This document shows, in pieces, positions 30,123-31,256 of a stretch of DNA of 32,650 nt. Below the pieces are notes generated by a model. It was given only the letters and a program-made list of their open reading frames with translations. It was not told where the DNA came from and did no database searches. A program made the translations under genes and the position numbers. The DNA comes from a virus (taxonomy: Duplodnaviria; Heunggongvirae; Uroviricota; Caudoviricetes), in the IMG/VR virus record IMGVR_UViG_2740892015_000008. One strand, written 5' to 3'. The stretch's first letter is position 1. Each line of letters begins with the position of its first letter.

Positions 30123-31256
30123 TTAATAATTATAATACCCCATACACAATGCCATCTGAGTCATCATATCCTGGTCTCTATCAATATTTATCTTGCCATC
30201 AGAAAAATCCAACACAAAGAAATGATGAAATTTCGGCGGAACAACTTTAGAGTAAAAGCAGAAATACTCATTATTCCTTTCATATTGAAAATTAACGTAT
30301 ATTTTTTTAATTTTTTTATTTTCCACCAGGTCCATAAACATTTTATTTAAATCTGACCTTTTACTTTCCTTGTCATCATCTTGAAGCTTAGGATCAAAGT
30401 AACGTATTAAGCAGTTTTCAATAATTCTCCCCTCATTATCAACATCAATTTCATCCAGTAGAGAATTTGAAATATTAAAGACCACATTACATTTATTATT
30501 CAGAGATATAATCCTTGGATTAAATATACTAAAACAAACAAAAAAATCATTATCGTCATTTGAAACGCTATACAGCATCTTTGATAAGCCACGGTGAATA
30601 AAATCAACAGGGCGCCGATGCGGATGACGTGTATATCCTACGTAATGCACTTCTGTATGAATTCCTAAATCAATATAATGTCCGTTTACGAAGTCATGAA
30701 CTGACATCACACATAAATTGCCATTTTCATATTCAATGTAGAGAAACTTCTCAGTTACTCTAACATTTGGAGTTACCTTCACTACCCCATTCTGCGTAAA
30801 CGTGCAAAAGGAATATTTTATCCGAAGCTTTCGCTCTTCTTTGCCAATCAACAGAGTGAATACTATATTTTTTGTGAATGGGTTATACCTAGGCTGTTTC
30901 TTGGTTGAAAACCTTACTTTTTTTCTTGAACCTAAGAAATAAATAAATCTCTTTTCACAGCTTTCCCTCGTATATTTTTCCATAATTCTGAGATAGTTCT
31001 TTATTATCTTATTTGTTCTTATATCATCAGGAGGATTAATTATCATATCATACCAAATACAATCGGTGTTAATGAGATCAATCCACAATGACTTATCGGC
31101 TTCTGAGAAAACCACGTTAGAGTTTATAAAATCAAAGTTTCCGCGAGTCATAAAACACTTCATCACATTAAAAATCACCTGCACATAATAAATTAAGTAG
31201 CAGAAGGTTCGCAAACCCTTGCTTCTGTTTGTGCTATGATATTTTTCATAATTCAT
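30123..31256 (-). CDS. Hypothetical protein (377 aa), AT-rich orphan gene between excisionase and integrase; candidate defence or lysogenic-conversion gene
   Basis: Long minus-strand ORF, very AT-rich (Asn/Lys/Ile/Tyr/Phe-rich protein), convergent with the early-left operon; AGGGA about 10 nt upstream of ATG 31256; start uncertain (alternative Met32). Confidence 0.65.
   Translation of the reverse strand: MNYEKYHSTNRSKGLRTFCYLIYYVQVIFNVMKCFMTRGNFDFINSNVVFSEADKSLWIDLINTDCIWYDMIINPPDDIRTNKIIKNYLRIMEKYTRESCEKRFIYFLGSRKKVRFSTKKQPRYNPFTKNIVFTLLIGKEERKLRIKYSFCTFTQNGVVKVTPNVRVTEKFLYIEYENGNLCVMSVHDFVNGHYIDLGIHTEVHYVGYTRHPHRRPVDFIHRGLSKMLYSVSNDDNDFFVCFSIFNPRIISLNNKCNVVFNISNSLLDEIDVDNEGRIIENCLIRYFDPKLQDDDKESKRSDLNKMFMDLVENKKIKKIYVNFQYERNNEYFCFYSKVVPPKFHHFFVLDFSDGKINIDRDQDMMTQMALCMGYYNY

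What the first reader, a model, noticed from the sequence alone, without database searches (positions are those of the whole stretch)
30123..31256. AT-rich 377-aa orphan gene at the integrase-proximal cargo position
A single long minus-strand ORF lies between the AlpA-type excisionase and the P4-type integrase, convergent with the early-left operon and visibly much more AT-rich than the neighbouring phage genes. The int-proximal slot is a classical site for lysogenic-conversion and anti-phage cargo. The protein has no motif I can name (no P-loop; one RHPHRR stretch is not a convincing HEPN Rx4-6H motif). Its start is uncertain (Met1 at 31256 or Met32).
Basis: partly seen in the sequence, partly recalled or inferred. 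Interest (0 to 1): 0.7.

Follow-up and report, generated by a model that had tools for sequence, protein, structure and literature searches.

The report
Hidden nuclease gene in prophage defence slot
The AT-rich gene next to the prophage integrase is not an orphan: it belongs to a small, unannotated, horizontally mobile protein family with a hard-to-detect GIY-YIG-type nuclease core, and it sits in a slot where sister prophages carry known anti-phage genes, so it is most likely a new single-gene phage-defence nuclease.

Summary
The ORF, its AT-richness (GC 0.32 against 0.50 for the window) and its position between the excisionase-like gene and a P4-type integrase are all real. Two details are wrong. 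The protein is 342 aa, starting at Met36 (window 31151), not 377 aa. It is also not an orphan: it matches PHROG 7779, 216 clusters at 50% identity, and 47 species genomes.

Curated libraries (Pfam, NCBIfam, PADLOC) give nothing for it. Four separate results point to a divergent GIY-YIG nuclease core at residues ~160-262:
- Pfam GIY-YIG is the only family hit repeatedly, below threshold, by distant members.
- hhalign to I-TevI beats 300 of 300 shuffles and pairs Y170/R180 with the catalytic Y17/R27.
- Y71, Y170, R180, H186, E240 and E245 are lost together in a few lineages.

The gene fills a ~1.4-kb exchangeable cassette with fixed breakpoints. Sister prophages carry a dGTPase, AbiU, an Mrr nuclease with a HEPN-like protein, or unknown genes there. 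Homologues elsewhere are solitary and lie beside Hachiman, CBASS, AbiE, PARIS, MADS, Bil and R-M genes.

Best reading: a stand-alone defence nuclease expressed from the lysogen, functionally analogous to PD-T4-3/CMoRE but not a member of that family. Function is inferred, not shown.

The parts
30123..31151 (-).
   Evidence: start by homology; orthologues closed upstream; dN/dS 0.19-0.20
31152..31256 (-). In-frame upstream extension (35 codons) that is probably not translated; contains a sigma-70-like TTGCGA-18-TATTAT at 31214..31185 and an AGGTGA at 31180..31175
   Evidence: the promoter is a consensus match only, not above shuffle expectation
30004..31414 (.). Exchangeable cargo cassette (GC 0.342), bounded by the conserved region 3' of xis and by the int stop codon; eight sister prophages break homology at 29974-30003 and 31385-31420 and each carries a different cargo
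30957..31151 (-). Residues 1-65: N-terminal region (long beta-hairpin 19-33, helix 46-64); conserved K20, W22, W33; no recognisable fold match
30672..30956 (-). [not shown]
30366..30671 (-). Residues 161-262: GIY-YIG-like nuclease core: H-Y170-V-G172-x-T174-x-x-P177-x-x-R180-P ... H186-x-G188 ... D202-F-F ... E240-G-x-I-I-E245-x-x-L-I-x-Y-F ... Q257-x-x-(N/D)260
30126..30365 (-). Residues 263-342: rest of the long helix (255-279) and a C-terminal beta-sheet subdomain with conserved S301, H310, F312; function unknown
30642..30644 (-). Codon TAC = Y170, proposed equivalent of the 'YIG' tyrosine (I-TevI Y17)
30612..30614 (-).
30417..30419 (-). Codon GAA = E245, proposed metal-binding glutamate (aligned to the I-TevI IIE73-R-E75 segment); E240 (30432..30434) is the alternative
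30939..30941 (-). Codon TAT = Y71, which is lost together with the catalytic set; possible stand-in for the 'GIY' tyrosine (unresolved)
29719..29913 (+). Left flank: 64-aa HTH excisionase-like gene (end of the early-left operon), convergent with the cargo gene
31415..32650 (-). Right flank: P4-type tyrosine integrase, upstream of the cargo gene and co-oriented with it

Best explanation
The gene encodes a 342-aa stand-alone anti-phage defence nuclease carried as exchangeable cargo by a temperate lambdoid phage. In the proposed mechanism, the lysogen expresses the gene from its own upstream region. The central domain (residues ~160-262) is a highly divergent GIY-YIG-type, metal-dependent endonuclease whose active site uses Y170, R180, H186 and E245/E240, and possibly Y71 and D/N260. 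The surrounding uncharacterised domains (1-160 and 263-342, with the invariant R76/R80 strand) keep the nuclease inactive or target it, so that it cuts DNA only when a feature of an infecting phage is recognised. That feature could be a DNA modification or structure, as for type IV enzymes such as PD-T4-3/CMoRE, or a phage protein that triggers abortive infection.

Shown here: the gene is real and under purifying selection; the family exists and always has the same single-gene architecture; the GIY-YIG-like fold and motif; the cassette/hotspot nature of the locus; the defence-rich neighbourhoods. Inferred: nuclease activity, the substrate, the trigger, and the defence phenotype itself.
For: Real gene: dN/dS 0.19-0.20 against orthologues at dS ~0.45. 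There are 216 family representatives with a fixed 300-350 aa architecture, and the gene is intact in 61 of 62 E. coli genomes.

Nuclease core:
(ii) Pfam GIY-YIG is the only family hit repeatedly by diverse members (8 of 74, best E 1.8e-4; every other family <=2), and the hits fall on residues ~165-214 = profile positions 10-56.
(iii) hhalign of the 74-sequence domain profile against an I-TevI mini-profile gives 82 columns, P 5e-4, score 24.3. Shuffles give mean 11, sd 2.3, max 22, with 0 of 300 reaching the observed score. The alignment pairs Y170-Y17, R180-R27, the IIE segment and position 260-N90. R27 and E75 are the residues mutated in the I-TevI crystal constructs.
(iv) Conservation: Y170 in 66/74, G172 68, T174 70, P177 71, R180 65, H186 63, E245 64.
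(v) Specific co-loss: loss of Y170 coincides with loss of R180 7/8, H186 7/8, E240 7/8, E245 5/8 and Y71 5/8, but never with loss of H152, R76, R80, D202 or H310.

Defence role: the cassette has fixed breakpoints in 8 sister prophages and alternative cargoes dGTPase, AbiU and Mrr_cat + HEPN-like. Homologues are solitary and adjacent to BrxR-BilABCD and reverse transcriptases, to type I R-M plus ScoMcrA-HNH, and to a Dcm-type methylase/Vsr on an ICE. In 35 further loci the neighbours include HamB, DitA, PDC-S05, TRIP13, AbiEii, mad3/8, SAVED-HNH, AriA, type IV REase and AbiLi. The family has a patchy, HGT-like taxonomic spread. It is absent from all lytic phages: 1 of 50,697 phage records, the same temperate phage.

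Precedent: PD-T4-3/CMoRE is a single-protein GIY-YIG defence enzyme with a sensing domain of novel fold (PMC12923530).

Against: On the defence side: PADLOC has no model for it. Three or four homologue contexts show no obvious defence genes. The neighbour scan had no matched control and gives counts per family, not per locus. The promoter prediction is not above chance.
Confidence: 0.5

Rival explanations
1. The GIY-YIG resemblance is real but the protein is an abortive-infection or toxin-like effector rather than a restriction-like enzyme. Once triggered by a phage protein or by damage, it degrades host and phage nucleic acid indiscriminately and kills or arrests the cell. This is a variant of the best explanation that differs in target and outcome.
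For: There is no partner methyltransferase or immunity gene anywhere in the family, so self/non-self discrimination must be built in. The slot also carries Abi-type cargo (AbiU). Neighbours include AbiE, CBASS and PARIS-type Abi systems and CcdAB/PIN toxin-antitoxin genes.
Against: Nothing distinguishes it from direct restriction. Placement beside type I R-M and McrA-like type IV genes, and the closest defence analogue PD-T4-3 being a type IV enzyme, point the other way.
Confidence: 0.2
2. It is a free-standing GIY-YIG homing endonuclease: a selfish gene that spreads by cutting cargo-less alleles of the int-xis intergenic region in related prophages, with no benefit to the host.
For: GIY-YIG domains are typical of free-standing phage homing endonucleases (I-TevI and Seg proteins; established knowledge). 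The gene is AT-rich, solitary, and present or absent between conserved phage genes.
Against: The same breakpoints hold at least eight unrelated cargoes, including bona fide defence genes, so exchange by flank recombination explains the polymorphism. The family is absent from lytic phages and from all but one of 50,697 phage genomes. Most homologues sit in chromosomal defence islands, ICEs or plasmids, not in phage genes. No NUMOD/IENR1/HTH DNA-binding modules are detected, and the nuclease-like core is central rather than N-terminal.
Confidence: 0.06
3. It is prophage cargo with some other accessory role, unrelated to phage defence. Examples: lysogenic conversion or a fitness factor, DNA repair or damage response like the small GIY-YIG protein YhbQ, anti-plasmid or inter-bacterial competition, or a phage-beneficial nuclease used during induction.
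For: Integrase-proximal moron slots also carry virulence and fitness genes (established knowledge). Some homologue contexts show no defence genes. In Klebsiella it lies next to a T6SS Hcp/Tlde1 effector module. YhbQ is annotated as a DNA-damage-response exonuclease.
Against: The identified alternative cargoes of this slot are defence genes. Neighbour hits are dominated by defence systems. There is no secretion signal or virulence-type domain. Similarity to the YhbQ profile is insignificant.
Confidence: 0.12
4. The GIY-YIG similarity is spurious or vestigial. The protein is not a nuclease and acts through another mechanism, for example as a sensor, scaffold or binding protein whose conserved Arg/Tyr/His residues bind a ligand.
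For: All similarity scores are below the usual significance thresholds. The 'GIY' half-motif is missing. Some lineages have lost the proposed catalytic residues but keep the rest of the protein, including R76/R80/D202/H310, so a non-catalytic function exists at least in those lineages.
Against: Four independent methods converge on the same domain and the same register. The residues that match GIY-YIG catalytic positions are the ones that are most conserved and that are lost together.
Confidence: 0.15

Closest known systems
PD-T4-3 / CMoRE (single-protein type IV restriction enzyme, PDB 9U75; PMC12923530)
I-TevI catalytic domain (GIY-YIG homing endonuclease, PDB 1LN0/1MK0)
   Different: No intron or homing context, no linker or DNA-binding domain of the I-TevI type, and the GIY tyrosine is absent. 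The helix carrying R27/H31 is replaced by a Pro-rich loop (P177, P181). The family is bacterial and island-borne rather than from lytic phages.
T4 endonuclease II (DenA), R.Eco29kI, and the UvrC N-terminal domain (other GIY-YIG enzymes)
   Different: No detectable sequence similarity. Different domain partners. No cognate methyltransferase (unlike Eco29kI) and no UvrB-interaction or RNase H-like domains (unlike UvrC).
Variable defence hotspots of temperate phages and satellites (P2/P4 hotspots, Rousset et al. 2022, PMC9122126; prophage-borne systems of Vassallo et al. 2022, PMC9519451)
   Same: A short cassette with conserved flanks inside a prophage, holding one of many alternative, mostly AT-rich defence genes.
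   Different: This hotspot lies between int and the excisionase-like gene of a lambdoid (yfdPQR/DUF551-type) prophage with a P4-type integrase, not at the P2 or P4 hotspots. I found no description of it in the searchable literature.
DUF971 / N-terminal domain of gamma-butyrobetaine hydroxylase (PDB 3MS5, 3LUU, 3K8R)
   Different: 7-14% identity. The alignment was not shown, so the region is inferred. No Pfam hit. The function of DUF971 is itself unknown, so the match adds no mechanistic information.

Membership tests
GIY-YIG nuclease superfamily | Three-stranded antiparallel sheet flanked by helices (beta-beta-alpha-alpha-beta-alpha core) | tested here: met
   [not shown]
GIY-YIG nuclease superfamily | 'YIG' motif: Tyr-[IV]-Gly in strand 2 | tested here: met
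   H-Y170-V-G172-x-T174; Y in 66/74, [VI] in 72/74, G in 68/74; aligned to I-TevI Y17-V-G19.
GIY-YIG nuclease superfamily | Catalytic Arg about 10 residues after the YIG tyrosine | tested here: met
   R180 in 65/74, spacing 10 as for I-TevI Y17-R27; lost together with Y170.
GIY-YIG nuclease superfamily | 'GIY' motif: first catalytic tyrosine in strand 1, 10-11 residues before YIG | tested here: not met
   The position predicted by hhalign (158/159) is not conserved. H152 (58 His, 9 Tyr) is not lost with the catalytic set. Y71 is lost with it, but the splice test gave no support. The residue may be supplied from elsewhere in the fold; this is unresolved without coordinates.
GIY-YIG nuclease superfamily | Metal-binding Glu in the helix after strand 3 | tested here: met
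   E245 in 64/74 (5 Gln), within I-I-E-x-x-L-I-x-Y-F, aligned to I-TevI I-I-E73-R-E75 with a 2-residue offset. E240 (61/74) is an alternative. Which of the two binds metal is not resolved.
GIY-YIG nuclease superfamily | Conserved Asn about 15 residues after the Glu | tested here: inconclusive
   Position 260 is Asn in 37/74 and Asp in 10/74, including the window protein; aligned to I-TevI N90.
GIY-YIG nuclease superfamily | Match to Pfam PF01541 at the gathering threshold | tested here: not met
   The window protein has no hit. 8 of 74 members hit below threshold, best E 1.8e-4; 15.6 bits against a 22.6 cut-off for P0119.
GIY-YIG nuclease superfamily | Divalent-metal-dependent phosphodiester cleavage | not testable with these tools
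   Requires purified protein and active-site mutants.
PD-T4-3 / CMoRE defence family | Match to the family's HMM; N-terminal GIY-YIG with a 'GIYxY-YIG' motif; C-terminal 5hmC-sensing domain | tested here: not met
   No PADLOC family at E <= 10. The motif is absent. The architecture differs. Features are as described in PMC12923530.
Anti-phage defence systems (operational definition) | Preferential location in defence islands or MGE hotspots next to known defence genes | tested here: met
   Slot alternatives are dGTPase, AbiU and Mrr + HEPN-like. Neighbours of homologues include Bil, DRT-like RTs, type I R-M, McrA-like, Hachiman, CBASS, AbiE, PARIS and MADS. No matched background control was run.
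Anti-phage defence systems (operational definition) | Reduces phage plating or burst when expressed in a sensitive host | not testable with these tools
   Experimental.
Free-standing GIY-YIG homing endonucleases (Seg/I-Tev type) | N-terminal GIY-YIG plus C-terminal DNA-binding modules (NUMOD, IENR1, HTH); located in phage genomes between or within conserved genes | tested here: not met
   No such Pfam domains. The nuclease-like core is central. Only 1 of 50,697 phage genomes carries it.
   The RHPHRR stretch lies in a loop after a beta-strand of an alpha/beta domain. Only P177 and R180 are conserved. There is no HEPN Pfam or PADLOC hit.

The most novel reading that the evidence does not exclude
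This is the founding member of an undescribed single-gene immune family. A cryptic GIY-YIG catalytic core, lacking the canonical first tyrosine and possibly completed by a distant strand (Y71), is embedded among three domains of unknown fold that act as the sensor for a phage-specific cue. Lineages that have lost the catalytic set (Y71, Y170, R180, H186, E240, E245) but kept the R76/R80/D202/H310 framework would then be sensor-only or decoy derivatives. The int-xis junction of this lambdoid prophage group would be a previously uncharted defence hotspot that holds at least five more unknown candidate systems.
Probability: 0.4. Interest if true: 0.7.

Novelty: new variant of a known kind. Interest (0 to 1): 0.58.

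Why it matters
If confirmed, this adds a defence family that every current annotation resource misses: Pfam, NCBIfam, PADLOC 2.0, and PHROGs (which lists it as 'unknown function'). It would also show that GIY-YIG nucleases in immunity are more diverse than the single known case, PD-T4-3. The analysis supplies a short list of point mutants (Y170, R180, H186, E245, Y71) and a defined 1.4-kb cassette, so the hypothesis can be tested directly. The hotspot itself has practical value. With conserved flanks (the int stop codon and the 3' end of xis) it can be mined across thousands of E. coli genomes. Besides a dGTPase and AbiU it already holds at least five other unannotated cargoes, including a 517-aa gene carried by Stx1a- and Stx2c-converting phages of EHEC. 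Those cargoes could influence which phages can superinfect these pathogens.

Tried and rejected
- **Curated libraries on the window protein.** Pfam gave only NNH2 at E 0.05, below threshold, in 6 of 44 members, treated as chance. NCBIfam and PADLOC gave nothing.
- **PDB sequence-profile searches.** The full-length and domain alignments returned only chance hits: vestitone reductase, TIM10, PksJ.
- **Foldseek on the full model against PDB.** No hit at E <= 0.001; the top hits were low-TM beta-sandwich noise. The afdb50 library was unavailable.
- **Seeding a GIY-YIG reference profile with I-TevI.** The big database returned only 9 close relatives. A three-seed alignment returned mostly near-identical YhbQ orthologues, and the resulting YhbQ profile gave no significant hhalign match.
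- **Hypothesis that the F-I-Y71-F strand is the missing 'GIY' strand, with residues 82-160 as an insertion.** Splicing 62-76 onto 165-282 did not improve the I-TevI alignment (24.0 against 23.9). The best of 136 windows (40-54, score 28.2) lies in a helix and is probably chance. The idea survives only through the co-loss statistics.
- **HEPN reading of RHPHRR.** Rejected; see the membership test.
- **Homing-endonuclease reading.** Rejected on distribution and on the multi-cargo breakpoints.
- **Literature searches.** Searches by accession, PHROG id, phage name and topic found no description of the protein or the hotspot.
- **Promoter and terminator scan.** Not above shuffle expectation.
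Full report
**1. The observation**

A minus-strand ORF runs from 31256 to 30123, 377 codons. It lies between a 64-aa helix-turn-helix excisionase-like gene (29719-29913, +) and a 411-aa integrase (31415-32650, -). The integrase has the P4-type architecture Arm-DNA-bind_3 / Phage_int_M / Phage_integrase. The small gene matches HTH_17/MerR-type models only below threshold, so 'AlpA-type' is approximate. The ORF is co-oriented with int and convergent with the plus-strand early-left operon (yfdP, yfdQ, yfdR, ead/Ea22-like, DUF551, xis). 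Its GC content is 0.320 (GC3 0.324), against 0.504 for the window, 0.471 for the left flank and 0.447 for int. The descriptive part of the finding is therefore correct.

**2. Start codon and length**

The protein is 342 aa, not 377.
- PHROG 7779 (342 positions) aligns end to end starting at residue 36 (E 1e-246).
- RefSeq/PGAP annotates the 342-aa form, WP_225092812.1.
- All homologues begin M-x-R-G at this point and are 300-350 aa long.
- In the three closest orthologous loci the frame upstream closes after 4-13 codons with no ATG.

A sigma-70-like TTGCGA-18-TATTAT (31214-31185) falls inside the supposed extension. That fits the shorter form, but it is only a consensus match and not above shuffle expectation.

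**3. Not an orphan, and a real gene**

The first database search found 47 clusters. An exhaustive profile search of 1.84 billion representatives found 216 at E <= 0.001, of which 124 were at E <= 1e-30. A scan of one genome per species found 47 loci in Gamma- and Betaproteobacteria and Campylobacterota, plus single Verrucomicrobiota, Acidobacteriota and Desulfobacterota genomes. That patchy distribution is typical of a horizontally transferred accessory gene.

The gene is in 62 of 5426 complete E. coli genomes, always single-copy and chromosomal, and at full length in 61 of them. Against orthologues at about 80-82% amino-acid identity, dN/dS is 0.19-0.20 at dS about 0.45. Every source calls it 'hypothetical protein', and I found no mention of it in the searchable literature.

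**4. What the protein is**

Pfam, NCBIfam and PADLOC give nothing significant for the window protein. The family alignment shows a striking conserved core: H-Y170-V-G-x-T-x-x-P-x-x-R180-P-x(4)-H186-x-G ... D202-F-F ... E240-G-x-I-I-E245-x-x-L-I-x-Y-F-x(4)-Q257-x-x-N/D260. I recognised this from memory as GIY-YIG-like and then tested it five ways.

- **(b) Pfam, below threshold.** Among 74 diverse family members, PF01541 (GIY-YIG) is hit by 8, with best E 1.8e-4. No other family is hit by more than 2. The matched segment is residues ~165-214, equal to profile positions 10-56 of 78, which is the YIG-Arg-His region.
- **(c) Profile-profile comparison.** They differ from it only by the engineered R27A and E75A active-site mutations. 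hhalign of the 74-sequence domain profile against a four-sequence I-TevI profile gives an 82-column alignment (family 160-261 against I-TevI 8-91) with score 24.3, P 5e-4 and probability 32%. It pairs Y170-Y17, R180-R27, the I-I-E245 segment with I-I-E73-R-E75, and position 260 with N90.
- **(d) Shuffle controls.** 200 column-shuffled templates and 100 column-shuffled queries gave a mean of 11, sd 2.3 and maximum 22.0, so none of 300 reached the observed score. The reversed template scored 15.0.
- **(e) Conservation and co-loss.** Across 74 sequences down to about 20% identity, Y170 is kept in 66, G172 in 68, T174 in 70, P177 in 71, R180 in 65, H186 in 63, E240 in 61 and E245 in 64. 57 keep Y170+R180+H186+E245 together. 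Eight sequences have lost Y170. Of these, 7 have also lost R180, 7 H186, 7 E240, 5 E245 and 5 Y71, but none has lost H152, R76, R80, D202 or H310, which are equally conserved. This specific co-loss marks Y71/Y170/R180/H186/E240/E245 as one functional unit. The caveat is that the eight sequences represent only two or three clades.

**5. Limits of the GIY-YIG assignment**

Every individual score is below conventional thresholds. PDB sequence profiles find nothing, and a YhbQ-based profile gives only a short insignificant match.

The canonical first tyrosine ('GIY') is not identifiable. The position predicted by hhalign is variable. H152 (His in 58, Tyr in 9) is not part of the co-loss set. My hypothesis that the conserved F-I-Y71-F strand supplies it, with residues 82-160 as an insertion, was not supported by a splice-and-align scan, although Y71 is lost together with Y170.

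Position 260 is Asp in the window protein and its enterobacterial relatives, and Asn in most others. I therefore call this a divergent GIY-YIG-like core. It is probably homologous to the superfamily but fails two of its textbook features (see the membership table).

**6. The other domains**

**7. The locus is an exchangeable defence cassette**

BLAST of the window against eight sister prophages shows that homology stops at 29974-30003 and resumes at 31385-31420 in every one. The cassette is therefore about 30004-31414 and includes 260 bp upstream of the gene. Each sister prophage carries a different cargo there:
- a dGTPase (PADLOC dGTPase, E 9e-105);
- AbiU/AIPR (E 3e-111);
- an Mrr_cat nuclease plus a HEPN/RES-NTD-like protein;
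- unknown cargoes of 517 aa (all Stx1a- and Stx2c-converting phages listed), 160+150, 271, 239 and 413 aa.

Two well-established defence systems occupying the same slot make a defence role for this cargo the most economical reading.

**8. Contexts of homologues**

The gene is solitary everywhere, with no conserved neighbour.
- Robbsia andropogonis: BrxR - BilA-D - homologue - two reverse-transcriptase genes.
- Klebsiella variicola: HsdR/M/S - homologue - Tlde1/Hcp - ScoMcrA-HNH.
- Salmonella: on an ICE, beside a C5-methylase/DUF4928/Vsr module.
- A Pseudomonadales genome: beside CcdAB and PIN.
- Serratia: on a conjugative plasmid.
- No obvious defence genes in Arcobacter, a Budviciaceae genome and one metagenomic contig.

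I also scanned 141 ORFs lying within about 1.9 kb of the homologue in 35 further species-level loci against PADLOC at E <= 1e-5. This gave HamB (8e-258), DitA (8e-176), PDC-S05 (1.5e-147), TRIP13 (1.4e-128), AbiEii (3e-117), mad3/mad8, SAVED-HNH effectors, AriA, type IV restriction enzymes, AbiLi and others. The tool reports counts per family rather than per locus and I had no matched control, so this is qualitative support.

Only one of 50,697 phage genomes encodes the protein. That genome is PhiR63_1 from ECOR13, which shares the int-cargo-xis region with the window at 99.1% identity. No lytic phage encodes it.

**9. Mechanism proposed**

The lysogen expresses a 342-aa protein whose central GIY-YIG-like domain is a metal-dependent endonuclease. 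The flanking domains restrict its activity to infection, either by recognising a property of foreign DNA or by responding to a phage-encoded trigger. The DNA-recognition option is type IV-like, as in PD-T4-3/CMoRE, where a GIY-YIG domain is coupled to a modification-sensing domain of novel fold (PMC12923530). The trigger option is abortive infection.

No methyltransferase or immunity partner occurs anywhere in the family, which means the discrimination must be intrinsic. Placement beside type I and type IV restriction genes in Klebsiella mildly favours the restriction-like version. I put about 0.75 on the GIY-YIG-type nuclease core, about 0.6 on an anti-phage role, and about 0.5 on the combined statement.

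**10. Rivals**

- A homing endonuclease is unlikely: many unrelated cargoes share the same breakpoints, the family is absent from lytic phages, the nuclease-like core is central, and there are no DNA-binding modules of the homing type.
- A non-defence accessory role cannot be excluded.
- A non-catalytic function is possible, and is likely for the lineages that have lost the catalytic residues.

**11. Novelty and verdict**

The protein is not a member of any described defence family. It appears to be a new, architecturally distinct variant within a known kind, the single-protein nuclease defence systems built on a GIY-YIG superfamily core. Interest is moderate to good. New defence families are common, but this one escapes all current annotation, comes with specific testable residues, and marks a prophage hotspot with several further unknown cargoes, one of them in Shiga-toxin phages.

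Noticed in passing
window 16001-17552: A second AT-rich island (GC 0.30-0.32) holds two overlapping plus-strand ORFs, 16091-17017 (308 aa) and 17004-17552 (182 aa, hydrophobic and membrane-like). They are antisense to the late operon and lie immediately downstream of antiterminator Q (17565-17921, -), which is the classical 'stx slot' of lambdoid phages. Neither has a Pfam or PADLOC hit. The pair is present at full length in 219 of 5426 E. coli genomes, annotated as two hypothetical proteins. It is a candidate two-gene cargo (defence?) system.
   Followed up: partly
L003 1941-3494 (+) (Stx2c-converting phage Stx2c_PV98-693; same slot as window 30004-31414): The 25 Stx1a- and Stx2c-converting phages listed share the int and xis flanks (about 94% identity). 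In the one examined, the slot holds a different AT-rich 517-aa ORF on the opposite strand. Its N-terminus looks membrane-spanning, and it has no Pfam or PADLOC match.
   Followed up: partly
L017 1102-2078, L018 1141-1956, L019 1134-1853, L020 698-1939 (same slot in other E. coli prophages): Four further unrelated cargoes (160+150 aa, 271 aa, 239 aa, 413 aa) occupy the same int-xis cassette and have no significant Pfam or PADLOC match. L010 carries an Mrr_cat nuclease next to a 313-aa protein with weak HEPN/RES-NTD1 and RT-associated-HEPN matches, possibly a two-gene system.
   Followed up: partly
family members P0112, P0117, P0118, P0140, P0147, P0159, P0176 (alignment A3): Some distant lineages of the family have replaced the proposed catalytic residues (Y170, R180, H186, and in four of these seven also E245; often Y71 too) while keeping full length and the R76/R80/D202/H310 framework. 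These are apparent catalytically dead derivatives whose function must differ.
   Followed up: partly
L068 14433-15019 (E. coli MS8345 sister prophage) versus window ~16000-17550: In MS8345 the position downstream of Q holds a truncated DNA-methyltransferase pseudogene and tRNA-Ile, tRNA-Arg and tRNA-Arg genes instead of the window's AT-rich two-gene cassette. The window itself has no tRNA genes. The Q-downstream position is thus a second variable slot in this phage group.
   Followed up: partly
H52 (E. coli 2015C-3121, NZ_CP027340.1) and cluster members P0198, P0205 (Shigella): One E. coli genome has an IS1A element at the cargo locus (match split into 2 pieces, 83% covered). The Shigella flexneri and S. 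dysenteriae copies in the 90% cluster are truncated (251 and 293 aa). These are occasional decay events against a background of intact copies.
   Followed up: no
L001 8755-8823; L008 4413-4481; L009 4760-4828; L010 4069-4137 (just beyond the window's right end): About 225 bp beyond the integrase start, every sister prophage examined carries the same 69-bp pseudogene fragment annotated 'hypothetical protein, incomplete'. It is probably the duplicated piece of the target gene at the attachment site. In MS8345 the prophage lies next to yjjG.
   Followed up: no
L006 7219-7971 and 9244-11536 (Arcobacter); L016 8132-11594 (metagenomic contig): In loci without recognisable defence genes, the homologue is flanked by several ORFs with no Pfam hit (for example adjacent 567-aa and 591-aa proteins in L016). 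These could be further unannotated island genes.
   Followed up: no
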